Positions 528-14,790 of a stretch of 20,000 bases of DNA are shown piece by piece. Position numbers and translations under genes: made by a program. The DNA comes from an uncultured virus (IMG/VR IMGVR_UViG_3300045125_000080) (lineage: Duplodnaviria; Heunggongvirae; Uroviricota; Caudoviricetes), in IMG/VR virus record IMGVR_UViG_3300045125_000080; one strand, written 5' to 3'. The notes under the pieces are model-generated. The model ran no database searches, was not told the origin of the DNA, and was given only the letters and a program-made list of their open reading frames with translations. Each line of letters opens with the position of its first letter. The first letter of the stretch is position 1.

Positions 528-546
528 AGCTTTTCTATTTCTTGTT

Positions 547-744: not shown

Positions 745-2185
745 AGCTTTTCTATTTCGTTTATTGCGTTTAGGACTTGACTTGTTGTGTATTTTGCGCA
801 AGGGGGAAGTTCTGAGTCAATATAACAAGGCTCACTTTCCACACCAATTTGCTCGATGCCAACAAAATGGTTTCATACAGATTGGGTTGTTAATGGAATG
901 ATTTGTAAGGATAACTTTGTCGGATAGGTCAGGATGCACCACTTCTGGGTTCGTATTGCCAAAGAAAAGTATTGACGGCACACCAAATGCTGATGCTACG
1001 TGGCTCACGCCTGAATCAATGCCTATAAATAGGTCAGCACTTCCCACTACATAACAAAGAAAGTTTTCGTTTTGTGTATTAATGTAAATAGCGTTCTTTA
1101 TTAAGCGGTACGTTTCTTTTCCTACCTGAAATACCGAATACCCTTTTGCTTGCAGGCTCGCTACCACATTTTCCCAGTCCACCCCAAATACTCCTCTACC
1201 AGACTGTCTAATGCCCTCTAAGTGTATAATACAGCGTCTTTTGAAAAAGCCTTGTACTCTCAATAATATCGAAAACCTACAGATAGTTTAGGATTTTTCA
1301 TTTCTCCATCCTTAATACCGCAGAACTGATAATAAGTTAGTAGTCTATTCTGTTTAGGAACAGACTCGTAGGCCATATCTAGGTTATGATAAATGGCATT
1401 ATGCAGTATTCTTCTGTTTATTGTTTTATAAAATGTACCGGGAAGTCGTGATTAACGAAAAGCATATAAAACTGCTCAAGCGTATCTAAGACAACCCTAT
1501 AACCCTTTATTATGAAAATATCTTAAAACAGGTTCAACTAAAATAACATCACCCATTGACGCCATTCTTTTAATTACAACAGTTTGCTGATACGGCTTAT
1601 GAAATTTTCCGTGAAATCCAAATGTATCGTAAATAGGCGCTCTAAGTTCGTAAGACAAACCTATCTGCTAAATCCTCTGGGGCGTATGTTATTTTATAAA
1701 ACTTTATTAAGGTAATCTCTATAAAGCCTGCCAATTGCTTGGTCTTCCGGATCGTGTAGCAACAATAAAATCATCAAGTAGTAAGTGCTGATTGAAGTTT
1801 TTTAGACCTAATGGAAAATCCTCCATTACCGACATTTTTGCCATCTGGATAAGTCCAAGGACGCTCCTATGTAATCGTAATGCAAAATTCTGGCAGCCAC
1901 GACTTCCCGTTCAGCACATACCCATCTGCTTGAATAACTAATACAAAGTCTGTATCAAAATACTTGTATAGCTCTTTAATCATAAAGTGAGCTGTACTCT
2001 TCCTTTGACCTAATAGTAGGAATATTTACTACCTCAATTCCCTCAAATTCAAAAGGCTTGTCTGTAATAAACTTAACGGCAGCAAAGTCACATTCAGCCA
2101 TACTCTTTCGTATAGCTGCTACTGCTTCTCCGTGATTTACGCAGTCTACGCAGATAAGAGTTACATTACTTAGACTTGTTTTCAT
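741..2185 (-). CDS. DUF5672-like domain fused to a GT9 (heptosyltransferase-like) glycosyltransferase; several indel frameshifts
   Basis: Joined frames give VTLICVDC...VLVIQADGYVLNG...YDYIGA.W...VGNGGFSIRSKK (DUF5672-like), then KRMASMGDVILVEPVL and ADLFIGIDSGVSHVASAFGVPSILFFG (GT9 motifs); ends ...NAINEIEKL* at 741. Confidence 0.8.
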
Positions 2186-2291
2186 TCCAAGTTTTCTTGA
2201 GTCTTTTGTATACTTTTTTCATTGTGTCGGGGGAAGACGCGGTGATGATTTGAGCCAACTTACGTAGCTTCTTTGCTCTTGTTTTTCTCAT
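2166..2291 (-). CDS. 41-aa basic micro-protein (MRKTRAKKLRKLAQII...)
   Basis: ATG overlaps the stop of 2288..2506; fills the gap to the GT9 gene. Confidence 0.55.
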   Translation of the reverse strand: MRKTRAKKLRKLAQIITASSPDTMKKVYKRLKKTWNENKSK

Positions 2292-2506
2292 TGTCTCCAA
2301 TTTATAGGTACTTGAATATTTTCTCCATTCATTTTGTTTGGATAAACTCTTATCTCATCATCGTAAAAATTGCGGACAGAACCATCTTCATAAAATACAA
2401 CCTTCCAAACTGTATTTACATCTGGGCCGTAATCTATCCACGCTATAGCCTTACCATAACCAAGTGGGGTATGAACGTCTATTCCTGCTTTTAATTCGTG
2501 TATCAT
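2288..2506 (-). CDS. 72-aa phage hypothetical protein
   Basis: Intact ORF with ATGA coupling at both ends. Confidence 0.75.
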   Translation of the reverse strand: MIHELKAGIDVHTPLGYGKAIAWIDYGPDVNTVWKVVFYEDGSVRNFYDDEIRVYPNKMNGENIQVPINWRQ

Positions 2507-3295
2507 TGTGTATTCAGTTTACCAAAGTAATAGTCAAGACTTCCCTGATGATAAAAATCATACCCATTCGGCCCTACTGGTATGCAGTTGGGAAGTTGTG
2601 GGCATATCTCCAAGATACGAGGAACTTTCAAAGCTTCGGCTATCTGATAGCAAAAACTTTGATTGCCAAGAAAGAATTTACACCCCTTAATCCATTGAGC
2701 CAGTTCATAAAAGTCATCAACCTGAAGTAACTCAAGGTCAAGATCCCACGTCTTGCAAAAGAGGTCTCTTTCTGATTGAAGTCCTGCAAAGACAATATTT
2801 TCCTGATGGGCCTTTAAAAGAAGTAATTGGTTAGATAGTTTCTGTACCGCTGGGTAAAGTTGATTATGATTTTATTATTCTCTCTTGCCTTGACATCTAA
2901 ATAGGGAACAGATAGGTCTGATGCCATTTGAGGGAAGACGTAGTTAAACCACCTATTGAGGCTTCCTCTTGGTTGATTGGTATATCTTTCTTGACGTATT
3001 AAGTCAAAGTCTATATCTACTTCTTCCCCCTTGAATACTAAAAGTCTTCTATGTAGTCTTGGGAAGATATGAGCCTGCGTAAATTATCAAACATATACTG
3101 CGACATACAGATAGGCTCGTCATATTCATTCTTAAACGGATGGATGCTGTCGGGAGTTCCCGCACCCTGCATACCTATCCTCTGGTAAACGATTCCCTTG
3201 CGTCCCGTATCTTCCCACAACTTCCTAATACCAGCCAAAAAGCTAATCAGGTCTCCAGAAGGGGAAGAAGTCTTATATTTTAAAGGATTTTGCAT
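2503..3295 (-). CDS. Second GT-B/GT9-like glycosyltransferase; frameshifted
   Basis: N-terminal SGDLISFL; C-terminal ELAQWIKGCKFFLGNQSFCYQIAEALKVPRILE resembles the GT9 'FIGxDSG..H.A.AL..P' region; TGA at 2503-2505. Confidence 0.65.
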
Positions 3296-3359
3296 ATCTT
3301 TGATACGATATTTTCGCAGCGTTTGCGAAGAGTTTTCTTCACAGCTAAATTGTTAAACA

Positions 3360-3621
3360 ATGCCTAATTTGTTTTTGGTGCAGGTTTACGGAATTGATGC
3401 TCCCGGTGGTTCTACTGAAATCTGCTGCCGCTGGTGGACAAGCAAATCTTTTTGCTTCTCAAAGCCCAATCCACGTTTACCCCACTACTCAGACACGTGG
3501 CGTAGCTCAAGTACAATGTAACGCTGTCATCGAAGTGCTTCCTCAAGGATTGAATCAAATCTCTACGAAGTACTTTACCGACAGAACTGTTGCTCAAGTA
3601 CAAGCTTTGGCTAACGCGTAA
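3360..3621 (+). CDS. ~87-aa Ala/Gln/Val-rich protein, monocistronic, possibly virion-associated; one frameshift near 3420
   Basis: MPNLFLVQVYGIDAPGGSTE joins the track ORF ending ...TDRTVAQVQALANA; own terminator follows. Confidence 0.6.
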
Positions 3622-3644
3622 TCGAATTTTCTCGATTAAAGAAG

Positions 3645-3671
3645 TCCGATCCATAGTGGTCGGATTTTTTT
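3645..3671 (+). terminator. Intrinsic terminator
   Basis: TCCGA(T)CCA-TAG-TGGTCGGA stem then T7, between convergent genes. Confidence 0.75.
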
Positions 3672-3825
3672 ATGCCAATTTGTTTCTGAGTTCTTCCAGC
3701 TCATTTTTAAGCTGGTCTAAGGATTGTTCCACGTGAAGCTTTAAGGCAGCCAATATCTTAACTTGGTCTACCACGTCAGACTTGGAAAGTTCCTTGATAA
3801 TCTTTTCAATGTTTGCTTTTGCCAT
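3670..3825 (-). CDS. 51-aa coiled-coil-like protein (MAKANIEKIIKELSKS...)
   Basis: Intact ORF translated by hand; ATG overlaps the stop of the HTH gene (TAATG). Confidence 0.65.
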   Translation of the reverse strand: MAKANIEKIIKELSKSDVVDQVKILAALKLHVEQSLDQLKNELEELRNKLA

Positions 3826-4040
3826 TAATCAATGTATTTGTTTGTGATAAAATAGGATACGAGCTGTGTGGTGTTCTTGCAATTAAACTTTGCCCTTACA
3901 AGTTGTAGCTTGTAGGCAAATGTATTTTTGTTAAGACCGACCTTTTCAGCTACCCCTTTTGCTTTCTCGCCGCTCGCCAAGAGGCGAACCCAAAGGATTT
4001 CTTCCTCTGTCGGAATGGGCGGTGTGTAGTTTTCTTCCAT
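3825..4040 (-). CDS. LuxR/GerE-type HTH DNA-binding protein
   Basis: LLASGEKAKGVAEKVGLNKNTFAYKLQLVRAKFNCKNTTQLV fits the LuxR C-terminal pattern. Confidence 0.8.
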   Translation of the reverse strand: MEENYTPPIPTEEEILWVRLLASGEKAKGVAEKVGLNKNTFAYKLQLVRAKFNCKNTTQLVSYFITNKYID

Positions 4041-4044
4041 ACTG

Positions 4045-4076
4045 CAAAGATAGGCGCTATAAAAGAAATTTACAAA
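4045..4076 (-). promoter_or_regulatory. Bacteroidota sigmaA-type promoter for the HTH gene, near-leaderless
   Basis: TTTG(4076-4073)-N20-TATCTTTG(4052-4045); ATG 4 nt downstream. Confidence 0.75.
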
Positions 4077-4091
4077 AAAATTTATATTTTA

Positions 4092-4122
4092 TTTGGTAGT
4101 CCAATTTTTATCTATATTTTTG
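4092..4122 (+). promoter_or_regulatory. Bacteroidota sigmaA-type promoter for the nuclease/heptose operon
   Basis: TTTG(4092-4095)-N19-TATTTTTG(4115-4122). Confidence 0.75.
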
Positions 4123-4163
4123 TTTAGAAATTATTTGAATAGGATAAATGATTAATTTACGGT

Positions 4164-4656
4164 ATGGGTATTGAACAGATAAGAGAATTAAAGAAACAGG
4201 CAGGACTTCCCAAGACGCCTAAAAAATATACTATCCCCAAGAAGTCAAAGAAGAAACTTAAAGAAGAAAAGGAAGAAAGAAAAGAAAGAGCAGGTGATGA
4301 TACACAGCTTGTAAAATGGTACAAGCATTGTCAAAGAGAAATGAGTGGTAATTGTTCAGAGTGTGGAAAGCCGACCAATACTAAAGTATACGAGTTGGCC
4401 ATTCATTCTATTTGCCACTTATTAGCAAAAAGAAAAACAGTAGCTCCAAGTGTAGCGTGTCACGCTCATTAACTGGATAGAGCTGTGTCCTGATTGTCAC
4501 TATAAGTTTGATAATAGTGCGTGGGAAGATATAGCGAAGTGGGGATGCTGGCCGGAGATACAAGATAGATTGATTCAGGTTTATCCAGCGATTGCAGAGG
4601 ATGAGCTTCGTCACTTCCCCGACATCGTACTAAACTATATGAATGAAAACTCTTGA
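4164..4656 (+). CDS. HNH/NinG-like Zn-binding nuclease; frameshift near 4465
   Basis: CSECG...ICHLLAK...NWIELCPDCHYKFD pattern; Lys-rich N-terminus. Confidence 0.7.
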
Positions 4657-4738
4657 CATTATAGCAACGATAGTCGGCATTATCTTTTTATATTTGGTAT
4701 ATAAAGCATTTGTTTATTCATTCTTTGATGATAAATAA
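4643..4738 (+). CDS. 31-aa single-TM micro-protein (MKTLDIIATIVGIIFLYLVYKAFVYSFFDDK)
   Basis: Intact ORF filling the gap; hydrophobic core. Confidence 0.5.
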   Translation: MKTLDIIATIVGIIFLYLVYKAFVYSFFDDK

Positions 4739-4740
4739 TT

Positions 4741-5141
4741 ATGATACGAAAAAACTGGTCTGGGTAAATGGATGCTTTGATATACTGCATCCGGGCCACT
4801 TTGAACTTTTTAGATTTGCCTCTGAACTTGGCAGTCTACACGTTGGAATAGACGCTGACGTGCGAATTAGAAAGATGAAGGGGCCGGGCCGACCAGTTAA
4901 TGACGAAGGGTTTAGAGCCGATATGCTATCTTCCCTGACATTCGTAGAAAAAGTTTACATCTTTGAAACAGATCAGGATTTAAGAGCAATAACCAAAAGA
5001 CTCAAGCCTGATATAATGGTTATAGGTGAAGAATATAAAGACAAGACTATTATAGGAGCAGAAAATGTAAAAGAGATTATATTCTTTAAAAAGACATTAG
5101 ACTCTACAACTGAAATTATTAATAAGATTAAGAATGGATAA
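4741..5141 (+). CDS. rfaE2: RfaE domain II-like heptose-1-phosphate nucleotidyltransferase (cytidylyltransferase superfamily)
   Basis: NGCFDILHPGH (HxGH), KGPGRPVN, C-terminal STTEII; start likely ATG 4741 with an indel shortly after. Confidence 0.85.
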
Positions 5142-5499
5142 AAAGCCTATTTGCACAGACGGTTGCCATATACAAAAAGGCTGGGGCAAAGAAATCGTTA
5201 TCATAAACAACGAGCTTTATTGTGGTAAGATTCTTGTATTTAAGTCTGGCTATCAATTTTCGATGCACTTCCATATTATCAAACAAGAAACGTGGTATGT
5301 AAATAAAGGCAAGTTTCAATTTAGATGGATTAATACCGAAGATGCAAGCATACATTCTATGGAATTGAATGTCGGGGAAGTCGTGACTATCCCTCGCGGT
5401 ATGCCACATCAATTAGAAGCACTTGAAGATGGAGAAATATTTGAAATATCAACACAACACTTTGATTCAGACTCGTACCGCGTATGGAAAGGAAATTAA
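5134..5499 (+). CDS. Cupin-fold sugar isomerase/epimerase-like protein
   Basis: KGWGKE...SMHFHIIKQETWYV...IPRGMPHQL...EISTQH. Confidence 0.8.
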   Translation: MDKKPICTDGCHIQKGWGKEIVIINNELYCGKILVFKSGYQFSMHFHIIKQETWYVNKGKFQFRWINTEDASIHSMELNVGEVVTIPRGMPHQLEALEDGEIFEISTQHFDSDSYRVWKGN

Positions 5500-5675
5500 C
5501 CCCTAGCTTAAAGGCTAAAGACCTTACAGTAAGAGAACACATAGCAATTAACCTGTTGCCTATGATGCTTGCTACTGCTTCAGACCTTGATGATCCAAAG
5601 GATGTCTGTGATGAGGCTATATCTATTGCTAACCTTTTAATTGAGAGGCTAAATGATGAAGAAAATATACGTTGA
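5484..5675 (+). CDS. 63-aa phage hypothetical protein
   Basis: Intact ORF overlapping both neighbours. Confidence 0.6.
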   Translation: MERKLTPSLKAKDLTVREHIAINLLPMMLATASDLDDPKDVCDEAISIANLLIERLNDEENIR

Positions 5676-5946
5676 TATTGACGGGACTATTTGTAATACT
5701 GTTGAGGGAAAATATGAGGATAGCACCCCTATTCAGGAACACATAGATAAAATTAATAATATGTATGACGCTGGTTGTTACATAGTTTACTATACAGCCA
5801 GAGGTCAGCGTAGCGGTAAAGACTATTGGATGCTTACAAACGACCAGCTTGAAAAATGGGGTTGTAAGTTTCATAAGCTTAATATGGGTAAGCCTGATTA
5901 TGATTTAATGATTTGTGATAAAACTAAACGCATCGAAGAAATATGA
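5653..5946 (+). CDS. Small HAD-superfamily phosphatase (capsule-biosynthesis-phosphatase-like)
   Basis: DIDGT motif I, YYTARG motif II, KP..D..ICDK. Confidence 0.85.
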   Translation: MMKKIYVDIDGTICNTVEGKYEDSTPIQEHIDKINNMYDAGCYIVYYTARGQRSGKDYWMLTNDQLEKWGCKFHKLNMGKPDYDLMICDKTKRIEEI

Positions 5947-6692
5947 ACTTCTTAATTATTGGGGAAAAATGTAAAGATGTATTTGTGTACGGGGAAGTCA
6001 CAAGGCTCAGTCCTGAAGCTCCTGTGCCTGTATTCAATCCTACTCGTAAAGTGGAAAATTTAGGAATGGCTGCCAATGTTTATAATAACTTATTTAATCT
6101 TATAGAAAAGAAAGCATCTTTAATCGGTCATTTTTCCAATGATAATATCATAAAAACAAGATACGTTGACGATAAGTCAAACCATTACTTTTTACGCATA
6201 GACGAAAACGACAAAACAGAGAGTATCAGGATTTCCCCCAACCTAACAAAAGTCATCCATAGTTCAGATTGCATTATTATATCAGACTACGATAAAGGTT
6301 TTATATCACTAAACGATATTTGGTCAATTTGCCAAGAAGCAAAAGAAAGTGCAGTAATTTTCTTAGACACAAAGAAGAAGTTAACACCTGTCATCTTTGA
6401 TCAGGTTGATTTCGTAAAATTCAACGAATCAGAATACAATCTCAATATTAAAAATTCAGAAGAATTTTCAAATAAGATAATAGTAACGAAAGGAGGAAAT
6501 GGAGCATACTACGATGGCGAGGACTTCCCCAGCGAGAAGAAATTAACCATTGATGTATCAGGAGCAGGAGATACGTTTTTAGCCGCATTAGCTTTCTATT
6601 TTATGACTTCCCGCGACATAAAAATAGCCATCCAAGAAGCCAATAAAGCAGCTTGCAAAGTAGTATCAGAAAGAGGAGTTTCGGTTATCTAA
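5943..6692 (+). CDS. rfaE1: RfaE domain I-like PfkB-family heptose-7-phosphate kinase
   Basis: RLSPEAPVPV, GMAANV, ISDYDKG, DVSGAGDTFLA. Confidence 0.9.
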   Translation: MNFLIIGEKCKDVFVYGEVTRLSPEAPVPVFNPTRKVENLGMAANVYNNLFNLIEKKASLIGHFSNDNIIKTRYVDDKSNHYFLRIDENDKTESIRISPNLTKVIHSSDCIIISDYDKGFISLNDIWSICQEAKESAVIFLDTKKKLTPVIFDQVDFVKFNESEYNLNIKNSEEFSNKIIVTKGGNGAYYDGEDFPSEKKLTIDVSGAGDTFLAALAFYFMTSRDIKIAIQEANKAACKVVSERGVSVI

Positions 6693-6700
6693 AAAATTTT

Positions 6701-6732
6701 TTTGGAAATAGAAAATTGGCGATGTATATTCG
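6701..6732 (+). promoter_or_regulatory. Bacteroidota-type promoter for the replication operon
   Basis: TTTG(6701-6704)-N20-TATATTCG(6725-6732); shares TTTGGAAATAG with the 12571 promoter. Confidence 0.7.
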
Positions 6733-6736
6733 TGTC

Positions 6737-6849
6737 GCTTAATCTGAATTTAATGAAATCAATTAAAAATATATTTCAAAATACTGGCTCGTCCTGTGAC
6801 GTTTCCTTCTCTTCATTGAGTTCGGATTAAGCAGCGTTATAGGCGAGCC
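6737..6849 (+). ncRNA. Structured 5' leader with two long interleaved helices and a 25-codon uORF (6753-6830)
   Basis: 6737-6757 pairs with 6812-6832 (21 bp, 3 G-U); 6786-6801 pairs with 6835-6849 (15 bp, 2 G-U, 1 bulge). Confidence 0.6.
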
Positions 6850-6865
6850 TACTTAATTTTATTTT

Positions 6866-7066
6866 ATGGCAACAATGAACTCTTTATTAATCTCTCCAAG
6901 TAGAGACCAAGCACAAGTTTCCATTTGTGTTAAATTATGTGGTTCTATACTGATAGAATCATCATATAATGAATGTCCTGTTTTTATTGAAATAGAAGCC
7001 GAAGATTGGGATTCAGTTAAAAAATTCATTGATTCAGAACTTAAAAAATTGAACGAAAATGGCTAA
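6866..7066 (+). CDS. 66-aa phage hypothetical protein
   Basis: Intact ORF overlapping the initiator start. Confidence 0.65.
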   Translation: MATMNSLLISPSRDQAQVSICVKLCGSILIESSYNECPVFIEIEAEDWDSVKKFIDSELKKLNENG

Positions 7067-7631
7067 AGATCCCGCATTTCTTTTTTATCCCAATGATTGG
7101 CTTGGAGGCACTCTTGGGATGACTTTAGAGCAAAAAGGAGCTTACATAGAGCTTCTTATGCTTCAATTTAATAGAGGTCATATGACCAAAGATATGATAG
7201 GTCACGTGTTAGGTCAAGAGGGTGGTCGAATTTTTGGTCAAATTAAGAACAAATTCCAAATTGATGAAAATGGCGATTATTTTAATGCCCGACTTGAAGA
7301 GGAACAAAACAAACGTAAGTCATTCGTACTCAGTAGGAAAAACAACAAAGAAGGCAAAAATCAATACACAAAAAGAAGGTCATATGAGAGGTCAAATGAC
7401 CTCACATATGGAAAATGAAAATGAAAATAGAAATATAAGTGAATATAGAGTTAGGGTAAGGGGGTATGGGGGAAAGGGGAAGAGAGCTGCTTCGTTTGTT
7501 GACTTGGAAAAAAATCTTGCCTACTTCACGGAGGATGGCACAGTCTTTCAGGAGCTTGGTTCGGAACAACGACAACTCTTGGAAAAAAGGAATTGAAATA
7601 CTACGAAATTTTTGAAGGTGAAATTTTTTAA
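7059..7631 (+). CDS. DUF1376/YdaU-like replication initiator; frameshifts near 7370 and 7590
   Basis: MAKDPAFLFYPNDWLGGT..MTLEQKGAYIELL N-terminus; lies directly before the primase-helicase. Confidence 0.75.
7176..7430 (+). repeat. Iteron-like 12-bp-phased GGTC(A) repeats inside the initiator gene; candidate origin
   Basis: GGTC at 7176, 7200, 7212, 7224, 7236 and at 7378, 7390; palindrome GGTCATATGACC at 7176-7187; GAAAAT repeats at ~7411-7428. Confidence 0.55.
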
Positions 7632-7640
7632 AAACTGAAA

Positions 7641-9545
7641 ATGTACTACGACCAACTTACAAAACTTGGAATTAGACTTCGGAAAAGAAGTGGGCAAGAA
7701 AAAACAACTTGCCCAAATTGCTCTGCTGGGCGGAAAAAGAAAACTGATCCTTGCCTTTCGTAAACATTTCTCAAGGCGATTACAACTGCCACAACTGCGG
7801 CTGGATGGGGAATGTGAGAACTTTTGTCAAGAAAGAAAATTTTAAAAAATACGAAAAACCAAGTCAAGAAATGCTCAAAAACATTGAGCTGAATGATAGG
7901 ATAAAGTTGTTTTTGAAGGTCGGGGAATAAGTGAGGCTACGTTGCAAAAATTCTTTATTCACGGCAAGGAAGAGTGGATGCCACAATCTCAGAAAAAACA
8001 ACGCTGCATCGTCTTCCCTACATACGCGACAATGAAATCGTAAACGCAAAATATCGCGATGGGAAGAAAGGGTTCAAACTTGTGAAGGATGCTGAATTGA
8101 TTTTTTCGGGATGCAAACACTTCAGGGTAGAAGATGTGCAATCATCGTGGAAGGTGAAATTGACGCGCTTTCAGCATACGAGGTTGGTTTTGGTCGGGAC
8201 TACGAACCGATTTGCAACGAGGATGGGGAAGTTGTGGAACACGAACTTGGCAGATTTGCGGTTCTTTCGGTTCCAAACGGGGCAAGTAAGGGGAACCAAC
8301 GGATGGAGTATTTGGACAACTGCGCCGAGTACTTGGAAACGGTTGAAGAGTTCATCATCGCAACCGACAACGATGCGCCCGGTCAAGCCCTTCGGGATGA
8401 GTTAATCCGCCGTTTAGGCGTGGAAAAGTGCCGAACTGTCAGGTGGGAAATCCTAAAATCGCACCAGACGCACGGAAAACGGCCCAAAAATCGCACCAAA
8501 AGATTTTAATGAGGTATTGTGCCACTTTGGAAAAGAGGCCCTTAAATCGCTTGTATTGAGTTCGCAGGAAGTTCCGGTGGATGGGATATTTTATGTCGAA
8601 GATATTTTTTCAACGATGTTGGAGAACTTTGAAAGGGGTGTTCAGATAGCCCCTCCGACAAGAATTGATGTGCTTGATGAGTACTTTAGGTGGAAGAAAG
8701 GAGATATAAATTTATGCACCGGATATGCTAATGCTGGTAAGTCTACTTTTATGCTTCAGTTGATGCTTGTTAAGAGTATTTGGGATGGATGGAAATGGGC
8801 GGTATTTAGTCCAGAAAATTTTCCTGCTTATGATTTTTATGATGATTTAGTAGAGATGTATGTTGGCAAGTGGAAAACGGATATGAAAAAGAAGAGTATG
8901 TAGAAGCCTGTGAATTTATTGGTCAGCATATATTCTTTGTGTATCCTGAAAACGAACACGATATAGAATCAGTACATAATAAGTTTCGTTATTTGATTTT
9001 AAAGAAAGGATTAGATGGTGTAATGATTGATCCATTTAATCAACTTGATTCAATGCAAAAGGCTTATCAAAGAGAAGACCAATATTTATCAAGTATATTA
9101 AAGGATATAAAAAGATTTGCATTACTAAATGGCATCTGTTATAACATAATAGCTCACCCAAAAAGTCCAAGTTATAGAGAAGATAAGTCTTTGCCTGTAG
9201 CGGATATGTATGATTTAGCTGGTGGTGCTATGTGGGGTAATAAAATTGATAACATACTTTCTTATTATAGACCAAGATTTCACGAAGACAAGAATAGTAA
9301 AGAAGTAGAGATATGGGTTCAAAAAATTAAAAGAAAAAGAACAGGCGGTCAGCTCGGTCATTGTAATTTAATTCTTGATTGGAGAACGAAAAGATTTTGT
9401 CATCCTGTATCAGGTCAAAGATTATTGTGATATTAAAAGAGCAAGAGTTGTCACATCTTCCCACAACCCAGATAACATAACACAAGGAGAGATATCTAAT
9501 AATTGGCTACCTTATAAGGATGATAGTACTGAAGCACCTTTTTAA
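7641..9545 (+). CDS. T7 gp4/Twinkle-like primase-helicase (Zn finger + TOPRIM + SF4 helicase); several frameshifts
   Basis: CPNC...CHNCGW; VEGEIDALS; ATDNDAPG; Walker A GYANAGKS; MIDPFN; IAHP; ends ...DDSTEAPF*. Confidence 0.9.
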
Positions 9546-9579
9546 TGTAGGGGAAGATATAATACACAAACACTAACCA

Positions 9580-10046
9580 ATGATAATTCACAAAACACAC
9601 ACGCACCGCTAAGACTTCCCCAACTACTAATTAAACCCAAGCTATTAGCTTACAGAGTAGGCTTTACAGAATCTTGTAGGTATGATTTAGGAATGAGAGA
9701 CCAAGGAGATATTAATAAACTATTTGGAGTGGGATATTTTCCCTCACACCACGAAAACTCTGTACGAGTAGGATGGAACTATGATATAGTATCAGGAAGA
9801 ATAAACATATTTGCTTATTGGTATGTAGGGGGAAAACGTGACTGGCAATACCTAAGAAGCGTAGACATAGGAGTAATGTGTTATTTTAAAATGTATATTG
9901 ACGATGATATGCATAGATTAGATATTGCAGGAAGAAACTACCGAGTAGATGTTCATAGCACGCCTATCTGCTATTTATTAAGACCATACTTTGGTGGAAA
10001 TAGAACCGCACCACACGATATTGTAATTGATATAAAAAAAGTATAA
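9580..10046 (+). CDS. Phage hypothetical protein (~155 aa); frameshift near start
   Basis: Track ORF 9693..10046 extends upstream (FTESCRYDLG) toward ATG 9580. Confidence 0.65.
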
Positions 10047-10276
10047 TGATTAAAACATTAAGAAGGAATGTTACTGAAGAAAAAGTAGAACGGACTAAAA
10101 AATTAATTAAACTTGGACGTTCATTAAGAGAGGCTGCAAAAGAAGTGGGTATTAGTTATTATTCTGCTTGGCATATTGCTAAGGGAAGTTATGACAATGA
10201 AATTAAACTTGACAGCATCTTTAAGAAAGAAGAAAGAAATAATTATTTTACGTGGAAAAACTTTGAGGTATTTTAA
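10046..10276 (+). CDS. HTH DNA-binding protein
   Basis: GRSLREAAKEVGISYYSAWHIAKG. Confidence 0.7.
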   Translation: MIKTLRRNVTEEKVERTKKLIKLGRSLREAAKEVGISYYSAWHIAKGSYDNEIKLDSIFKKEERNNYFTWKNFEVF

Positions 10277-10516
10277 TGGCAATAGTAAGAAACATACAAA
10301 ACAATAATCTATACCGTTATCTTGGATGATAATAAATATCGAAACATTATGACGGGAGTAGAAGGAGAGATACCAGAAGAAATGGCTCGTAAGATATTTA
10401 AGATTAACCTAGAGATGACGGAGCTGTGCGAGAACTTCCCCAACGTAGAAAAATTAATATTTGCATTAAAGCTTAAAATGGATAAAAATGAAAACACCGA
10501 TGCAAGAACTTCTTGA
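10276..10516 (+). CDS. Phage hypothetical protein (MAIVRNIQNNNLYRYLG...); one frameshift
   Basis: TAATG coupling at 10276; joins track ORF 10322..10516. Confidence 0.6.
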
Positions 10517-10703
10517 ATGGATTAAAGAGAAGTATGAAGTAAACATACCTGAATCAAAGCAAAATGAATACTTGACTCAAGAACGTAGTCATATTATTCG
10601 TGCGTGGGAAGATGGCGCACTCGCTAATGAAACAGGTATTGGATTTATTGACGGAACAATATATTTTGAAAATACATATTTAAACGATGCCGGCTCTCGT
10701 TAA
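10488..10703 (+). CDS. 71-aa phage hypothetical protein (MKTPMQELL...YFENTY)
   Basis: Intact ORF within the operon. Confidence 0.65.
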   Translation: MKTPMQELLEWIKEKYEVNIPESKQNEYLTQERSHIIRAWEDGALANETGIGFIDGTIYFENTYLNDAGSR

Positions 10704-10714
10704 CCGGTTTTATT

Positions 10715-11261
10715 ATGTCTGGTCTTATTAAAAAACAAGAAGGGGTTACACTTAAACATTAAGGAAGGGAAACTCGTTACCAAGAAAAATGGTGTAGTGG
10801 AAAGTTATGATGGCGTTCAGGGAGTCATTCAAAAGATTGACTTCGTAAAGGACGAGTATCAGGGCAAAACGTATGAGAAAGCGTCTATCCACATTAACAA
10901 TGTAGGGAAACGTATATCCTACAGATGCACGTAGATAGCGGTTACTTTAGAAACTTCTGCAACGCATTAAAGAACGGAAAGCCAAGAGAAGAGGTCTACA
11001 TTCAGCCGTCTTACAAGAAAGATGACAACGGAAAAACTTCTGCTGGTTGCTTTATTTCTCAGGGTGGTAAATTCTTAAAGCACGCCCACACAAAGGATAA
11101 TATGGGAGATCTTCCCCCGCTTGAAAAAGTAACCTTCAAGGGAGAAACAAAGTACGACAACAGCAAGCAAATTGAGTACTGGAAAAAATGGATTGCCGAA
11201 ACATTTAAAGAAGGAATTGAAGCCAGATGCTGAAGAGGAAGAAACCGACCTTCCGTTTTAA
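10715..11261 (+). CDS. Putative single-stranded DNA-binding protein; frameshifted
   Basis: Joined frames MSGLIKKQEG...; acidic tail EEEETDLPF* typical of SSBs; replication-module context. Confidence 0.65.
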
Positions 11262-11433
11262 TAAAGGGATCTATATCATTACTTGACTTCGATTTTAAGT
11301 CTTGTCTATTTTGCTCAGTATGCTCACATACATAACAGAAATGAGATTATAGCAAGGTGGCGAAGCTTGGTAGGTAAGAAAATGGATAGGATGTATATTC
11401 AGATTGCTCCTGACTATACACCTTCAAGAGTAA
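11261..11433 (+). CDS. Possible small hypothetical protein (...YAHIHNRNEIIARWRSLVGKKMDRMYIQIAPD...), ends uncertain
   Basis: Protein-like frame between SSB and terminator; start codon not visible. Confidence 0.35.
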
Positions 11434-11459
11434 AGCCGAGGAATTAACCTCGGCTTTTT
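11432..11459. terminator. Bidirectional intrinsic terminator
   Basis: AAAGCCGAGG-AATTAA-CCTCGGCTTT perfect stem between convergent units. Confidence 0.85.
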
Positions 11460-11522
11460 ACTGCCATTACTTCCCGAAACCCGACCAAAGGCCCGAATTA
11501 ATAATTAATTAGGCAGTAATAG

Positions 11523-11589
11523 CGACCAGTAGGGGACTCGAACCCCTATTTACCAGAGGAGGCGTGTTTGCTCTTACACTCAATTGGTC
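11523..11589 (-). tRNA. tRNA-like element with shortened anticodon arm; isotype not assignable
   Basis: Acceptor GACCAAT/ACTGGTC (1 mismatch), D stem GTGT/ACAC, T arm AGGGG-TTCGAGT-CCCCT; only 67 nt. Confidence 0.55.
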
Positions 11590-11596
11590 TATAAAA

Positions 11597-11737
11597 TTAG
11601 TTTCCTTTTCTAAACTCAAGGCCGATAAAAACCTTGGTACTATCCCTTAATACCTTGCCATCCAGATATTGCTTCTGAACTGTTACGCAGGATGTTAGGG
11701 AAGATATGACGATGATTGCGATGATTAACTTCTTCAT
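11597..11737 (-). CDS. Small lipoprotein (MKKLIIAIIVISSLTSC...); 3' end uncertain
   Basis: Signal peptide with LTSC lipobox; TAACTTTG promoter element at 11750-11743. Confidence 0.65.
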   Translation of the reverse strand: MKKLIIAIIVISSLTSCVTVQKQYLDGKVLRDSTKVFIGLEFRKGN

Positions 11738-11747
11738 ACCTACAAAG

Positions 11748-11904
11748 TTACTCCATAATTAGGATATAGTGAGCAGTCTTTTCCCCTGTTTTATAATAGA
11801 CCTTGACGCCCGGAAGCGTCTTACCTTGCTGTAAAAGACGCTGGATATACTGTCTTGAAACGCCTCTTAGCTTGGCGTACTGAGGTTGCTGACATTACTT
11901 TCAT
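11748..11904 (-). CDS. Small excisionase-like HTH protein; frameshift near start
   Basis: QYAKLRGVSRQYIQRLLQQGKTLPGV; TATATTTG at 11916-11909 just before the ATG. Confidence 0.6.
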
Positions 11905-11924
11905 ACCGCAAATATATGAAATGG

Positions 11925-11938
11925 TTGCTAATTAGCAA
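11925..11938. promoter_or_regulatory. 14-bp perfect palindrome TTGCTAATTAGCAA; candidate operator
   Basis: Overlaps the spacer/-33 region of the HTH gene promoter. Confidence 0.45.
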
Positions 11939-12405
11939 TGTTCGTTATATCGGTCAAAAAAGGCTCTTTTGTACGTTTTAACGAACACTGCCTTTTTACG
12001 CTTCCGAAAATGTCGGGCTTGCCTTAAAAAGGGTTTCGACCAAAACTTATACTATCAGTACATAAATCTGTATAAATAAACTTCAGCTATCTGTTAAATG
12101 CTTACTATGCTAGCTAGAAAATTATAGTCAATCAAATATCAATCTTTTATATTTAAAAATGCATAATCTTACAAAACTTGTTGTTAAACACATCTTCCCC
12201 AGAACACATCAGCACCATATACAACATAAACCCCCCGCGCTGACTGAGTGCGAGGATCTTCCCGCCACACCTAACCAAACAATGGCAAAGATCAACCAAG
12301 AGGACAAAGACCAGACCAACCCCGCCAACCTGCGCGAGGACTTCCCGCACAACATCACTAACAGGCAAAAAAACAGGGGACGGGGTAAGTATAAACCGCA
12401 ACCCC

Positions 12406-12490
12406 AAAAAACCCACCCCCGCGGAATCCGCGAGGGTACCCTCCAAGAGTAAGCACGCGACAAAAACCCAGCCCTAAGAATAGGGCCGGG
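12406..12490 (-). terminator. Two tandem GC-rich hairpins, each followed by a U-run on the minus strand
   Basis: Stems at 12467-12490 and 12415-12437; mismatches are G-U only on the minus strand. Confidence 0.6.
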
Positions 12491-12570
12491 ACACAAACAA
12501 AGAAAACACACTTGCCTACAAAGTTACATTATCCATCACCACGACTTCCCCAAACTTTTTATAAAATAAA

Positions 12571-12602
12571 TTTGGAAATAGTAAAACATCGTATTATATT
12601 TG
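12571..12602 (+). promoter_or_regulatory. Bacteroidota sigmaA-type promoter for the recombination operon
   Basis: TTTG(12571-12574)-N20-TATATTTG(12595-12602). Confidence 0.8.
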
Positions 12603-12638
12603 CTCTGGCCAATAATAAGCAAGCATTAGGTTTAAAAC

Positions 12639-12669
12639 GGCCTGTATTTCTATACGGGCCTTCTTTTTT
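12639..12669 (+). terminator. Terminator-like hairpin in the leader of the recombination operon
   Basis: GGCCTGTAT-TTCT-ATACGGGCC then TTCTTTTTT. Confidence 0.55.
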
Positions 12670-12681
12670 AAAACACACACA

Positions 12682-13351
12682 ATGACACAAACAACACTTG
12701 ATCTATTAAGGGATGCGGAGCCGTTATTTGCCCGCATACTTGAATTTGAGGCAAGCCATTCCTCTCTTCCTGATGTACTGGAAATGATTGACAAGATGGA
12801 GCCGCCTGCCTCTTGGGTGATAGAACTTCCCTCACAGATAAAGAAGGAACTTACAAGACAATCCCTCTGGATGTAATGGAGGCCGCTGTAAAGCGTATAT
12901 TTGGCACGAGAATCGCTTATCTCAAGTATGAGTGATCCAATCATCATTCAGGACAGGAGCGGCAAATTTTCGGCCTACAATGAGCCTCTCCGTACCAGGT
13001 ATCTGGAGACTTTGGATTTCTTCATCTAACCGGAGTGGCCTCTGTGACTTCCCCGAACATACAAGGACTAGAACTAGCCACCCCAAAAGCAGCAGTCAAT
13101 GGCAGTAAAGAACGCCATCAAGAAGCTCGGAGGACTCTTTGGTAAATACTTGAACCGGGTAGAGGACGAAATCATCGAGGAACCACAGATGAACCTTGAA
13201 GAAAAGATGGAATCACTTCCCGAAGCAATAAAAAACACCCAAACTATCGAAGAACTTAAGACCTACCGAAAGACTGGTATACTCTAAGAGTGTTTCACAC
13301 GAAATTCAGGGTAATCTATGAAGAACAATATAGAAATTAAAGACAAAATAA
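12682..13351 (+). CDS. Putative Rad52/Sak-like single-strand annealing protein; several frameshifts
   Basis: C-terminal (A)MAVKNAIKKLGGLFGKYLNR resembles the Rad52/Sak 'ALKRAA..FG..LY' helix; next to an exonuclease. Confidence 0.6.
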
Positions 13352-13376
13352 TAGTAAACACTTAAAAAATACTTAG

Positions 13377-14226
13377 ATGAACTGGGATAATTTACTCGTT
13401 AGATGCTCTTGTCTAGGCAAAATTATGACACCAACCAAGGGTTCGGTCATTACGGACAAGCAATTGGAGGAACTTGATAGGCTATCAGATCTTCCCAAGC
13501 GCACAGAAAAACAAGAAGTAACCTACCAAACACTACTGGCAAAGAAAAACGCACCACCAGAACTATCCGACACCGCAAAAAGCTACCTCAAGGAGCTTAT
13601 ACGTCTTCCATAAATACGGAAAAGAAACCGTTGGCGGATCAGAAAGGAGCAAGTACACTATGAAAGGCATTGTCCGTAGAGGACAACAGCATCAAACTAC
13701 TGAGCAGACTCGATAATGCCTACTATTCCAAGAACGAGGACTTCTTTAAAAACGACTTTATCATGCGGAACCCCCGATATTATGGTGAAATCGGAGAACA
13801 TATTCACCAAAATCATTGATATCAAGTCCTCTTGGGACGCCGCAAGCCTACTCAGCAACCTTGGGCAACCCTTAAACAGCAACTATTACTACCAAATGCA
13901 GGGTTATATGGCCCTAACAGGAGCTACCGAAGCCGAAGTCTGCTACTGCCTTGTCTCGATGCCAGATGAAATCATAAATTCCGAGAAAAAACGCATCTAC
14001 TACCTACTAAATCCGGCAACAGAAGACAACAAAGAGTACAAAGATGCCATCCAAAAGCTTGAGGACAATATGACCTTTGACGAAATCCCCGAAGGCGAGA
14101 GGCATTATCAAGTTCAAGGTAGAGCGCGATGACGCTGTAATTCAGTCTATCTACGAAAAAGTTCGTAGTTGCAGACAATGGATGTCCGAATTTGAAGAAA
14201 TGCACACCAGAATCAACAAAAATTGA
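13377..14226 (+). CDS. YqaJ/lambda-exonuclease-like PD-(D/E)xK nuclease; frameshifted
   Basis: RCSCLGKIM; GTPD...IIDIKSSW; YYYQMQGYMALTG. Confidence 0.85.
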
Positions 14227-14290
14227 CTTATTTGCACAACATATAGTGCAAAAACTTCCCCAACAGTCAAGTAATCCTTGACAACTCGCT

Positions 14291-14334
14291 AAAATGAGCG
14301 ATAAGTTAAGTAAAAATGAGCGACAAGTTGAGTA
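14291..14334 (+). repeat. 22-bp tandem duplication spanning the resolvase start
   Basis: AAAATGAGCGATAAGTTAAGTA / AAAATGAGCGACAAGTTGAGTA (2 mismatches). Confidence 0.8.
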
Positions 14335-14790
14335 AAAAAGTAATTTTAAACATTACTCCACAGACAAACATCAGAACAACGCAGGGTGATCGAGTATTTT
14401 TCCGAATTCCAAGAAATAAATTACGCCCTGCTGGACTAAAAGGCTACTCCGAATAGAGAGATACAACAACTACAAAGTAGAATTACTCACCGAAGCCAAG
14501 AAAAAAGGCTTTGTTGTTCCCGCTGCCGGACTTTCCATAACATTTTACATCCCCTGCCCTGAAAGTTGGCCTCAAAAAAGAAAAAAGCACACCACGGAAA
14601 GCTTCACCAGTCACGTCCGGATATCGATAACATAGGTAAGGGATTTTTTGACTCTTTGCTAGTCGAGGATAAGTACATCGCGAACATTACGCTCACCAAA
14701 AGATGGGTTGATTTTCCTCAAGGTTGGATTGAGTGCCTCATCTTCCCCGTAGACGAAACCATAGAAATCAAGGAGATACCAATAAAGTAA
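14316..14790 (+). CDS. rusA: RusA-like Holliday junction resolvase; frameshifted
   Basis: ITFYIPCPESW...HQSRPDIDNIGKGFFDSL..ED..I matches the RusA DxDN..K...D pattern. Confidence 0.85.

What the first reader, a model, noticed from the sequence alone, without database searches (positions are those of the whole stretch)
800..14750. Strong over-representation of CTTCCC / GACTTCCC / CACGACTTCCC on both strands
Hand count in 1-15010: about 43 CTTCCC/GGGAAG hexamers, roughly one per 350 bp and mostly inside genes. GACTTCCC/GGGAAGTC occurs 12 times (1440, 1901, 2538, 4204, 5375, 5992, 6522, 6605, 9613, 12339, 12543, 13046). The 11-mer CACGACTTCCC occurs 4 times (1440rc, 1898, 5375rc, 12540). A rough independent-base estimate assuming ~36% GC predicts ~3 hexamers and <1 octamer. 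Orientation is mixed up to ~11700, then all ten copies I found are CTTCCC toward the fold point. Inference: a selected, dispersed DNA signal, such as a protein-binding, nicking or packaging site, a Chi-like signal, or a DNA-modification target.
Basis: partly seen in the sequence, partly recalled or inferred. Interest (0 to 1): 0.7.

Follow-up and report, generated by a model that had tools for sequence, protein, structure and literature searches.

The report
Oriented DNA word across a phage clade
A clade of uncultured freshwater phages writes the short DNA word (A/T)(C/G)TTCCC about twice per kilobase into its genes on both strands, keeps it by selection on the DNA itself, and points every copy outward in its terminal repeats, which looks most like a Chi-type signal for an enzyme that enters DNA at its ends.

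Summary
CTTCCC occurs 45 times in the window, against 7.1 expected.

It is not a sequencing artefact. CTTCCC is the top-ranked hexamer in 19 of 20 related IMG/VR loci with a large terminase at least 80% identical. It is unremarkable in all 7 more distant relatives.

It is selected at the DNA level:
- It lies in all six frames.
- It exceeds synonymous-codon shuffles 3 to 3.5-fold (z 10-15).
- 52-79% of sites are exactly conserved at orthologous positions, against 20-32% for random hexamers.
- Third codon positions inside sites are 71% conserved, against 51% elsewhere.

The real motif is bipartite: CA, three bases, W, S, then TTCCC.

Both orientations are equally common in the genome interior, and same-strand copies avoid each other. 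In the roughly 2.8 kb inverted terminal repeat that ends at the window's fold point, 89 of 90 copies in 14 contigs point outward.

My best reading is a Chi-like signal for an end-entering helicase-nuclease (confidence 0.4). No reader protein and no host was identified. Rival readings are a primase site and a protein-docking site.

This scan has noted similar dispersed words in other phage clades.

The parts
804..809 (-). motif copy (exact core CTTCCC)
1040..1045 (+). motif copy
1440..1450 (-). motif copy, 11-mer CACGACTTCCC
1898..1908 (+). motif copy, 11-mer CACGACTTCCC
2231..2236 (-). motif copy
2538..2545 (+). motif copy (GACTTCCC)
2590..2595 (-). motif copy
2932..2937 (-). motif copy
3023..3028 (+). 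motif copy
3061..3066 (-). motif copy
3211..3216 (+). motif copy
3262..3267 (-). motif copy (exact core, weak flanks)
4204..4211 (+). motif copy (GACTTCCC)
4523..4528 (-). motif copy
4614..4619 (+). motif copy
4930..4935 (+). motif copy (exact core, weak flanks)
5375..5385 (-). motif copy, 11-mer CACGACTTCCC
5992..5999 (-). motif copy (GACTTCCC)
6522..6529 (+). motif copy (GACTTCCC)
6605..6612 (+). motif copy (GACTTCCC)
7477..7482 (-). motif copy (exact core, weak flanks)
8013..8018 (+). motif copy (exact core, weak flanks)
8061..8066 (-). motif copy (exact core, weak flanks)
8226..8231 (-). motif copy
9457..9462 (+). motif copy
9551..9556 (-). motif copy
9613..9620 (+). motif copy (GACTTCCC)
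10183..10188 (-). motif copy
10435..10440 (+). motif copy
10606..10611 (-). motif copy
11111..11116 (+). motif copy
11470..11475 (+). motif copy
11698..11703 (-). motif copy; last inward-facing copy before the terminal repeat
12194..12199 (+). motif copy, outward, in terminal repeat (C/A-rich element)
12258..12263 (+). motif copy, outward, in terminal repeat (C/A-rich element)
12339..12346 (+). motif copy, outward, in terminal repeat (C/A-rich element)
12540..12550 (+). motif copy, outward, 11-mer CACGACTTCCC, just upstream of a promoter-like AT-rich box
12826..12831 (+). motif copy, outward, in terminal repeat
13046..13053 (+). motif copy, outward, in terminal repeat
13216..13221 (+). motif copy, outward, in terminal repeat
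13491..13496 (+). motif copy, outward, in terminal repeat
14255..14260 (+). motif copy, outward, in terminal repeat
14742..14747 (+). motif copy, outward, last before the terminus
282..9835 (.). nine further copies with a variant first base (NTTCCC) that pass the position-weight matrix: 282+, 1170+, 3156+, 5706-, 6232+, 7923-, 8566-, 9738+, 9830-
   Evidence: variant cores enriched 1.4-2.2-fold over synonymous shuffles in relatives
12180..15010 (+). inferred inverted terminal repeat (inner boundary approximate), carrying a split exonuclease gene and RusA
   Evidence: G411 right end is an inverted copy of G411 2425-2528. Contigs G001, G002, G004 and G010 break within about 100-300 nt of this boundary. 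Alignment.
14796..15226 (.). perfect palindrome around the fold point (apex 15011-15012), the physical end of the DNA
   Evidence: arms 120 nt 100% and 94 nt 99%. Three IMG/VR contigs fold back at the homologous place.
15227..20000 (-). noisy reverse-complement copy of about 9766-14795; not real extra sequence
   Evidence: 64% identity with many gaps; no short-read contig covers 15342-20000
7974..9430 (+). phage primase-helicase gene (zinc ribbon, Toprim, DnaB-like), split by frameshift errors; candidate reader under the rival explanation
3825..4040 (-). GerE/LuxR-type HTH gene at the divergent early region; candidate reader under the docking-site rival
13377..14132 (+). RecE/YqaJ-like exonuclease gene, split by indel errors
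14380..14790 (+). RusA-like Holliday junction resolvase gene (frameshifted), last gene before the terminus

Best explanation
The word is an orientation-dependent signal. It is read on one DNA strand by an enzyme that travels along the DNA from an end or a break. The most likely case is a Chi-like sequence for the host's AddAB/RecBCD-type helicase-nuclease.

Shown:
- The motif, roughly CA-N3-W-S-TTCCC, is kept by selection on the DNA in a whole phage clade.
- Each orientation behaves as a separate resource. The two orientations are equally common, same-strand copies avoid each other within 200 bp, and opposite-strand copies cluster.
- In the inverted terminal repeat, only the orientation with CTTCCC on the strand whose 3' end lies at the terminus is kept, at two to three times the usual per-strand density.

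Inferred:
- A nuclease entering at a genome end meets many correctly oriented copies inside the redundant terminal repeat. It switches from degradation to recombination-promoting resection, so the unique genes are spared and the 3' tail can invade another copy of the repeat.
- Interior copies in both orientations do the same at breaks or replication intermediates.
- The reader protein and the host are not identified.
For: 1. Real and clade-wide. Whole relatives carry 79-126 WCTTCCC against 8-28 of the reversed control word. CTTCCC ranks first in 19 of 20 loci with terminase >=80% identical, and 212th to 1094th in 7 of 7 more distant ones.
2. DNA-level selection.
3. Strand logic. Plus/minus counts are 61/63, 62/68, 57/64, 59/59 and 90/88. 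Same-strand pairs within 100 bp number 37 against 83 expected (sd 9). Opposite-strand pairs number 124 against 84 (sd 9). Convergent (107) and divergent (112) pairs are about equal.
4. Terminal polarity. Outward:inward is 10:0 in the window, and 6:0 and 7:0 in two contigs whose terminal 3 kb is only 56-68% identical to it. It is 89:1 over 14 contigs, and 72:33 in the next 3 kb inward. The polarity does not follow transcription, since sense versus antisense overall is 237 versus 185.
5. Precedent with the same geometry. Lambdoid phage LLS has 23 Chi sites, 20 in the active orientation and clustered at the end open to RecBCD. Pseudomonas phage MD8 has 32 active and 0 inactive. Chi is active when it lies on the strand whose 3' end is at the entry point (PMC12315714, passages read).
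6. Bacteroidota use AddAB, and the Chi of Bacteroides fragilis AddAB was unknown in 2010 (PMC2887965, passages read).
Against: - No host genome with the signal was found. In 401 Bacteroidota genomes the densest has 0.54 WCTTCCC per kb, and the best ratio to the reversed word is 3.3. In 400 kb of that densest genome the word is at expectation (observed/expected 0.98-1.0) and not skewed. Only about 400 species were sampled and the host is unknown.
- All Chi sequences I recall are G-rich. This one would be pyrimidine-rich on the recognised strand.
- The phage carries its own exonuclease and RusA, whereas the Chi-rich lambdoid phages mostly lack recombination modules.
- If the ends are covalently closed hairpins, which the foldback contigs allow, a nuclease cannot enter until the hairpin is opened.
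- Sister lineages show no comparable word.
- The clustering of opposite-strand copies is not a specific prediction of the Chi model.
- Many of the 89 outward copies are orthologous, so they are not 89 independent events.
Confidence: 0.4

Rival explanations
1. Initiation site for the phage's own primase-helicase. The enzyme starts lagging-strand primers at the word, so each strand needs a copy roughly every kilobase. In the terminal repeat, forks run only outward, so only the lagging-strand template (the CTTCCC strand) needs copies, and these would give purine-started primers.
For: - The phage encodes a T7 gp4-like primase-helicase (zinc ribbon, Toprim, DnaB-like) and no DNA polymerase was found.
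- That protein is 66-92% identical among motif-bearing genomes and at most 32% identical in motif-free relatives.
- Mean same-strand spacing is about 0.8-1.1 kb, with same-strand avoidance at short range.
- The terminal polarity has the same geometry as for Chi.
Against: - Known DnaG/gp4-type primases recognise trinucleotides (recalled), not a bipartite word of about 12 bp.
- Same-strand gaps reach 2.4-5.7 kb and spacing is close to random (CV 0.70-1.10).
- There is no two-domain or graded polarity across the complete 70.6 kb genome. Only the last 5 kb or so is polar.
- The two- to three-fold higher density at the ends is not predicted.
Confidence: 0.2
2. Docking site on duplex DNA for a phage-encoded protein, for example the small GerE-type HTH protein. 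The protein would coat, compact or globally regulate the genome, as a very dense version of stoperators or phage P1 C1 operators.
For: - The bipartite motif spans one helical turn (CA at -5/-4, TTCCC at +1 to +5).
- A 72-residue GerE-type HTH gene sits at the divergent early promoter region. It was found in all motif-bearing genomes compared and in none of four motif-free relatives.
- Some intergenic copies lie next to promoter-like boxes or form inverted pairs.
Against: - In three error-free genomes, 257 of 277 copies lie inside genes, in both orientations relative to transcription.
- A duplex-binding protein does not explain why same-orientation neighbours are depleted while opposite ones are enriched, nor the 89:1 terminal polarity.
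- The motif-free relatives are distant or incomplete, so absence of the HTH gene there is weak evidence.
- Another clade-conserved candidate, the DUF6321 protein, was excluded. 78 of 80 loci that encode it lack the word.
Confidence: 0.12
3. Target of a sequence-specific nicking or base-modifying enzyme, or a polar guide for a DNA translocase (KOPS-like), or a word spread by a molecular drive, as DNA uptake sequences are.
For: - The motif is asymmetric and has a core plus weaker flanks with an A-rich, G-poor tail.
- Inverted pairs form stems in spacers, as uptake sequences do.
- The complement GGGAAG resembles the purine-rich KOPS and SRS words (recalled).
- Polarity towards the genome ends.
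Against: - A modification target needs no enrichment.
- Nicks at 124 opposite-strand pairs within 100 bp would break the genome.
- A guide word should be polar throughout, but the interior is balanced.
- No methyltransferase, nickase or FtsK-like gene is shared by all motif-bearing genomes.
- Uptake sequences belong to competent bacteria, and no sampled bacterial genome carries the word densely.
Confidence: 0.13

Closest known systems
Chi-rich lambdoid phages (E. coli phage LLS; Pseudomonas phage MD8), Genome Res 2025, PMC12315714
   Same: A short asymmetric word is accumulated far above chance in a phage genome. It is concentrated near the DNA end, in the orientation that places it on the strand whose 3' end is at that end (compared).
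   Different: - There the word is the known host Chi, about one per 1.9 kb, almost all in one orientation, at one open end, in phages that mostly lack recombination genes.
- Here the word and the host are unknown and the density is 2-3 per kb.
- Both orientations are equal in the interior.
- Both ends carry an inverted repeat, and the phage has an exonuclease and RusA.
Chi sites of AddAB/RecBCD bacteria
   Same: The word is 5-8 bp, asymmetric, lineage-specific and read in one direction. The Bacteroides AddAB Chi is unknown (PMC2887965).
   Different: No enrichment was found in 401 Bacteroidota genomes. Known Chi sequences are G-rich (recalled). This motif has a second conserved element (CA) five bases upstream.
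DNA uptake sequences (DUS of Neisseriaceae, USS of Pasteurellaceae); properties recalled, from no call
   Same: A core with weaker, partly A/T-rich flanks, at about one per kb, in both orientations and all reading frames, with inverted pairs in spacers. It is lineage-specific.
   Different: Uptake sequences lie in genomes of competent bacteria and are read by the uptake machinery. Here the carrier is a phage, and the terminal polarity has no counterpart.
T7 gp4 primase recognition sites (GTC-based pentamers); recalled, from no call
   Same: They are read on one strand by a phage primase-helicase of the same domain make-up. The strongest octamer read on the other strand ends in GTC.
   Different: T7 sites have a three-base core and need no enrichment. 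Here the motif has about 12 informative positions.
Stoperators of Cluster A mycobacteriophages and C1 operators of phage P1; recalled, from no call
   Same: They are asymmetric words dispersed through a phage genome and read by one phage protein.
   Different: Those number about 20-35 per genome, lie mostly between genes and are oriented with transcription. Here there are 120-180 per genome, mostly inside genes, and independent of transcription direction.
KOPS (FtsK) and SRS (SpoIIIE) polar words; recalled, from no call
   Same: They are purine-rich 7-8-mers with polarity towards a resolution site.
   Different: Those are skewed along whole replichores. Here only the last 3-6 kb is polar, and no FtsK-like gene was found.

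Membership tests
Chi-like signal | Short asymmetric sequence far above chance | tested here: met
Chi-like signal | In a linear phage genome, active orientation (word on the strand whose 3' end is at the end) dominates and clusters near the open end | tested here: met
   Outward:inward is 10:0 in the window and 89:1 over 14 contigs, at 2-3 times the per-strand density. Rule taken from PMC12315714.
Chi-like signal | Over-represented and replication-skewed in the host chromosome | tested here: inconclusive
   Host unknown. 401 Bacteroidota genomes reach at most 0.54 per kb, with ratio at most 3.3. The densest genome shows observed/expected about 1 and no skew over 400 kb.
Chi-like signal | Changes the activity of AddAB/RecBCD in one orientation | not testable with these tools
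   needs enzyme or in vivo protection assays
DNA uptake sequence | Core plus extended flanks, about 1 per kb, both orientations, all frames | tested here: met
DNA uptake sequence | Resides in the genome of a competent bacterium and biases DNA uptake | tested here: not met
   The carrier is a phage clade. No sampled bacterial genome is dense in the word.
Primase recognition site (gp4/DnaG type) | Trinucleotide core with a cryptic 3' base | tested here: not met
   The informative positions span -7 to +10, with an invariant TTCCC.
Primase recognition site (gp4/DnaG type) | Primers start at the site on the lagging-strand template | not testable with these tools
   No raw reads or RNA-DNA junction data.
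Stoperator / dispersed operator | Mostly intergenic, oriented with transcription | tested here: not met
   257 of 277 copies are inside genes in three clean genomes. Sense 237 versus antisense 185.
KOPS/SRS polar word | Strand skew over whole chromosome arms | tested here: not met
   The interior of the complete 70.6 kb genome is balanced in 5 kb bins.
Restriction-modification or BREX target | Avoided, or not enriched, in phage genomes | tested here: not met
   Enriched 3-7-fold over synonymous shuffles.
T5-type nick site | Single-strand interruptions at the word in virion DNA | not testable with these tools
   Only assembled contigs were served. Close opposite-strand pairs argue against nicks at all copies.

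The most novel reading that the evidence does not exclude
This phage clade exposes the so far unknown Chi sequence of a freshwater Bacteroidota host, or a phage-owned equivalent read by its own replication and recombination enzymes. It combines that word with a genome architecture new for tailed phages: inverted terminal repeats of about 2.8 kb that fold back at a conserved terminal sequence, as in hairpin-ended poxviruses or rudiviruses. A RusA resolvase and an exonuclease are encoded inside the repeat, and the repeat is packed with outward-pointing copies of the word.
Probability: 0.3. Interest if true: 0.85.

Novelty: new variant of a known kind. Interest (0 to 1): 0.7.

Why it matters
- Dispersed words kept by selection show that some machine reads the DNA. 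Very few such words are understood in phages.
- This word has a clear grammar: strand-wise coverage in the interior and strict outward polarity in the terminal repeats.
- If the word is Chi-like, it gives a directly testable candidate for Chi in Bacteroidota, which is unknown for the Bacteroides AddAB studied so far (PMC2887965). It would also extend the recently described strategy of Chi-rich phages (PMC12315714) beyond Proteobacteria.
- The terminal structure that came with it may be a new way for a tailed phage to handle linear ends. It consists of an inverted terminal repeat and foldback at a conserved end, seen in four independent assemblies.
- Practical point: the window's second arm is an assembly artefact and its genes carry indel errors.

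Tried and rejected
- Base-calling artefact at a modified site. I considered this because the window has long-read errors and a noisy foldback arm. Rejected because independent IMG/VR assemblies and short-read contigs carry the word.
- Codon or dipeptide usage. Rejected.
- Heptose pathway, GT9 glycosyltransferase and small HNH protein as linked functions. Rejected because motif-bearing G010 and G411 lack them.
It was the most conserved clade protein, 89-96% identical. Rejected because it has more than 8000 close homologues in many phages, and 78 of 80 loci encoding it lack the word.
- A different word ('dialect') in sister lineages. None of comparable strength was found. The best z is about 7, against 16-18 for one motif-bearing genome.
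- Host search:
  - No prophage relative above 53% terminase identity was found in the GTDB genome collection.
  - No tRNA was called in the window or in 7 loci.
  - A scan of 401 Bacteroidota genomes, and a closer look at the densest genome, gave nothing host-like.
- Other phage lineages with the word. Of the 80 loci fetched, the only dense one (G411) turned out to be a member of the same clade.
- An apparent all-plus run in the right 18 kb of G411 in the listing came from a truncated listing. My own counts show a mixed interior.
- Even spacing. Spacing is near random overall (CV 0.84-1.05) and only slightly regular per strand.
- Whole-genome polarity. None.
- Rfam. No family matched in 1-15200.
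- Protelomerase or DNA polymerase. Not detected by Pfam or PHROGs in the genes scanned.
- Read-end pile-ups for nicks. Not possible, because all 24 runs offered are kept as contigs.
- Literature. Searches for CTTCCC with phage and motif, for GGGAAG with Chi, and for overrepresented / bacteriophage genome / primase recognition (any two of the three terms) found no report of this word.

Full report
OBSERVATION

CTTCCC or its complement occurs 45 times in the window, 43 of them in 1-15010. The expectation from 200 dinucleotide-preserving shuffles is 7.08 (sd 2.55, none above 13). GACTTCCC occurs 13 times against 0.33 expected. Orientation is mixed up to 11698. All ten copies from 12194 to 14742 are on the + strand.

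WHAT THE WINDOW IS

The window comes from a phage. Its genes include:
- a heptose-nucleotide pathway and a GT9 glycosyltransferase;
- a GerE-type HTH protein;
- a replication organiser;
- a primase-helicase;
- a RecE/YqaJ-like exonuclease;
- RusA.

Several genes are split by frameshifts. Short-read contigs from four freshwater runs agree on single-base insertions or deletions at many places in the window. They cover 1-15000 but not 15342-20000. Positions 15011-20000 are a reverse-complement copy of about 9766-15010. The copy is 64% identical with many gaps, and perfect only for 215 nt either side of the fold. The window is therefore a long-read contig that folds back at 15010, and its second arm is noise.

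Because of this I first suspected a base-calling artefact. That idea fails. Six IMG/VR relatives found through the sugar kinase carry 2.1-2.6 CTTCCC per kb, against 0.09-0.29 per kb in three distant ones.

CLADE-WIDE AND SPECIFIC

Whole records give these counts of WCTTCCC against the same word read backwards:

| Record | WCTTCCC | Reversed word |
|---|---|---|
| G001 | 79 | 17 |
| G002 | 83 | 25 |
| G003 | 123 | 22 |
| G004 | 83 | 14 |
| G005 | 50 | 8 |
| G010 | 87 | 15 |
| G411 (70,567 bp, rated complete) | 126 | 28 |

In 27 loci found through the large terminase, CTTCCC is the top hexamer in 19 of the 20 with at least 80% identity, and third in the other. It ranks 212th to 1094th in all 7 loci with 71% identity or less. 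Some of the 20 loci are pieces of G001-G005.

Motif-free relatives show no other word of comparable strength. The closest cultured phages are Flavobacterium and Cellulophaga podophages, at 27% terminase identity. The runs that hold the sequence are from freshwater.

SELECTION ON THE DNA

- Frames. With ORF-based gene calls, copies lie in all six frames: sense 72/109/56, antisense 24/98/63. 83 of 505 copies lie outside called genes, many of them in the two error-laden assemblies.
- Shuffles. Shuffling synonymous codons within genes leaves 23-30 copies where 81-97 are observed in four genomes (z 12.5-14.9), and 16 where 49 are observed in the fifth (z 9.8).
- Orthologous positions. At 74-80% nucleotide identity, 52-79% of copies are exactly conserved at the orthologous place, against 20-32% of all hexamers.
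- Codon positions. Third codon positions inside copies are 70.8% identical (n=455), against 50.7% elsewhere (n=40,801). Second positions do not differ.

THE MOTIF

- Only changes at the first base of the hexamer are tolerated. GTTCCC, ATTCCC and TTTCCC are enriched 2.2-, 1.6- and 1.4-fold. The other 15 single changes are not enriched.
- The most enriched 7-mers are ACTTCCC (248 against 36), TCTTCCC (166 against 51) and AGTTCCC (115 against 30).
- An iterated weight matrix gives an invariant TTCCC, preceded by C>G, by A or T at -1, and by C at -5 (70%) and A at -4 (67%). Weaker C/A preferences follow up to +10, and the 3' side is A-rich and G-poor.
- With this matrix, motif-bearing genomes have 2.1-3.1 copies per kb and motif-free relatives have 0.08-0.19. 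The matrix was trained on the same genomes, so these densities are descriptive.

GRAMMAR

- The two orientations are almost exactly balanced: 61/63, 62/68, 57/64, 59/59 and 90/88.
- Neighbours alternate in orientation more often than chance (420 of 666).
- Within 100 bp there are 37 same-strand pairs against 83 expected (sd 9), and 124 opposite-strand pairs against 84 expected (sd 9).
- Convergent and divergent pairs are equally common (107 and 112 within 200 bp).
- Some spacer copies form 7-8 bp stems with each other.
- Spacing is otherwise close to random (CV 0.84-1.05 overall and 0.70-1.10 per strand), with same-strand gaps of up to 5.7 kb.
- There is no polarity across the genome interior.

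THE ENDS

- The last 106 nt of G411 are an inverted copy (95%) of G411 2425-2528.
- Contigs G001, G002, G004 and G010 all break within about 100-300 nt of the corresponding point, near window 12180.
- G411, G005, the short-read contigs and the window's fold all end within about 300 nt of one another.
- Three further IMG/VR contigs fold back 608-682 nt after the exonuclease gene. This is the position homologous to the window's fold, and the last 40 nt or so are similar. Self-alignment of two of them shows perfect palindromes over more than 10 kb.

I infer a linear genome with inverted terminal repeats of about 2.8 kb and a fixed physical end at window 15010. I cannot tell whether that end is a covalently closed hairpin, an open end that long reads and assemblers fold back on, or a head-to-head replication junction.

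In the repeat, every copy has CTTCCC on the strand that runs 5' to 3' towards the end:
- 10:0 in the window.
- 6:0 and 7:0 in two contigs whose terminal 3 kb is only 56-68% identical to the window.
- 89:1 for WSTTCCC over 14 contigs, many of these copies being orthologous.
- 72:33 in the next 3 kb inward.

Ten copies in 2.8 kb is two to three times the per-strand density elsewhere. The polarity does not simply follow transcription. Other + strand gene blocks in the window are mixed, and sense against antisense overall is 237 against 185.

MECHANISM

A process that is symmetric about the two ends, and that reads one strand, is either entry of a helicase-nuclease at DNA ends or replication forks running out to the ends.

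The first has a published precedent with the same geometry. Lambdoid phage LLS carries 23 Chi sites, 20 in the active orientation, clustered at the end that is open to RecBCD. Pseudomonas phage MD8 carries 32 active and none inactive. Chi is active when it lies on the strand whose 3' end is at the entry point (PMC12315714, passages read). Bacteroidota use AddAB, and the Chi of the Bacteroides fragilis enzyme was unknown in 2010 (PMC2887965, passages read).

I therefore rank a Chi-like signal first, at 0.4. In this reading the redundant terminal repeat serves as a buffer, where incoming nuclease is converted before it reaches unique genes.

Against this reading:
- The host is unknown.
- 401 Bacteroidota genomes reach at most 0.54 copies per kb, with a ratio to the reversed word of at most 3.3.
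- The densest of them shows the word at expectation and unskewed over 400 kb.
- Known Chi sequences are G-rich (recalled).
- The phage has its own exonuclease and RusA.
- Closed hairpin ends would block entry.

The primase-site rival (0.2) shares the geometry and has a clade-specific candidate reader. However, it requires an unprecedented recognition length, and it explains neither the long gaps nor the sharp terminal domain. A duplex docking site (0.12) does not explain the orientation grammar. Nicking, modification, translocase guidance and uptake-like drive together get 0.13. The remainder is unassigned.

CANDIDATE READERS TESTED

The heptose genes and the small HNH protein are absent from motif-bearing G010 and G411. 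The DUF6321 protein, 89-96% identical across the clade, has more than 8000 close homologues, and 78 of 80 loci encoding it lack the word. The GerE-type HTH protein and the primase-helicase remain as candidates, on distribution alone.

COMPARISON AND NOVELTY

The word works like Chi in Chi-rich phages. It looks like a DNA uptake sequence in its anatomy. It meets the sequence-level and end-geometry features of Chi, but the two defining functional features could not be met or tested: host enrichment with skew, and an effect on AddAB/RecBCD.

I found no report of this word in three literature searches.

Earlier notes of this scan describe similar dispersed words in other phage and giant-virus clades, none with a known reader. 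They are unchecked notes and count as context only.

I rate this a new variant of a known kind. The terminal architecture is a separate lead that deserves its own follow-up.

Noticed in passing
window 12180-15226; also L188, L191, L195, G411 ends: The phage genome appears to be linear, with inverted terminal repeats of about 2.8 kb and a fixed end. Four independent assemblies fold back into a palindrome there. The last 40 nt or so are similar between contigs that are otherwise 56-68% identical. RusA and a RecE-like exonuclease lie inside the repeat, and no protelomerase or DNA polymerase was detected. This could mean hairpin ends or head-to-head replication junctions, which is unusual for a tailed phage.
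   Followed up: partly
window 15227-20000: The second arm is a noisy reverse-complement copy (64% identity) of 9766-14795. No short-read contig supports it, so it is an assembly artefact of a foldback long read.
   Followed up: yes
window 7974-9430, 13377-14132, 14380-14790, 11740-11905: The primase-helicase, exonuclease, RusA and a small Xis-like HTH gene are broken by single-base indel errors. Four runs agree on the corrections (for example at 8100, 13599, 13763 and 14103).
   Followed up: partly
window 12150-12460: A 300 nt element, strongly C/A-rich on the outward strand, lies at the inner edge of the terminal repeat. It carries three motif copies 64-83 nt apart and has blocks conserved in G411 and G005. 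It has no Rfam match. It might be an origin or another cis element.
   Followed up: partly
window 832-1263(-), 4710-6692(+): This is a phage-borne heptose-nucleotide pathway: cytidylyltransferase-like enzyme, cupin, HAD phosphatase, PfkB kinase and a GT9 heptosyltransferase. It is present in some clade members and absent from G010 and G411. The kinase is about 40% identical to genes of marine cyanophages.
   Followed up: partly
window 176-460(-); L010 14343-14657: This small DUF6321 protein is 83-96% identical across more than 8000 database proteins from many unrelated phages (GC 34-68%). That degree of conservation is extraordinary for a phage protein of unknown function.
   Followed up: partly
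window 168-764 and 6698-6713, 6982-6997, 9990-10005, 12570-12590: A second repeated element lies upstream of small genes. It is a 32 nt box repeated four times at 139-217 nt spacing on the minus strand, with related TTTGGAAATAG-type boxes. These are probably promoters or translation start regions.
   Followed up: no
window 11520-11565(-): There is a stretch resembling the 3' half of a tRNA (T arm and acceptor), next to the Xis-like gene. ARAGORN calls no tRNA. It could be an old attachment-site remnant.
   Followed up: partly
G001 35147-41254, G002 13063-20388, G004 34227-42065, G411 45035-54568: A giant virion-region protein of 2035-3177 residues differs greatly in length and sequence between clade members. 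It carries about 3 motif copies per kb in G411.
   Followed up: no
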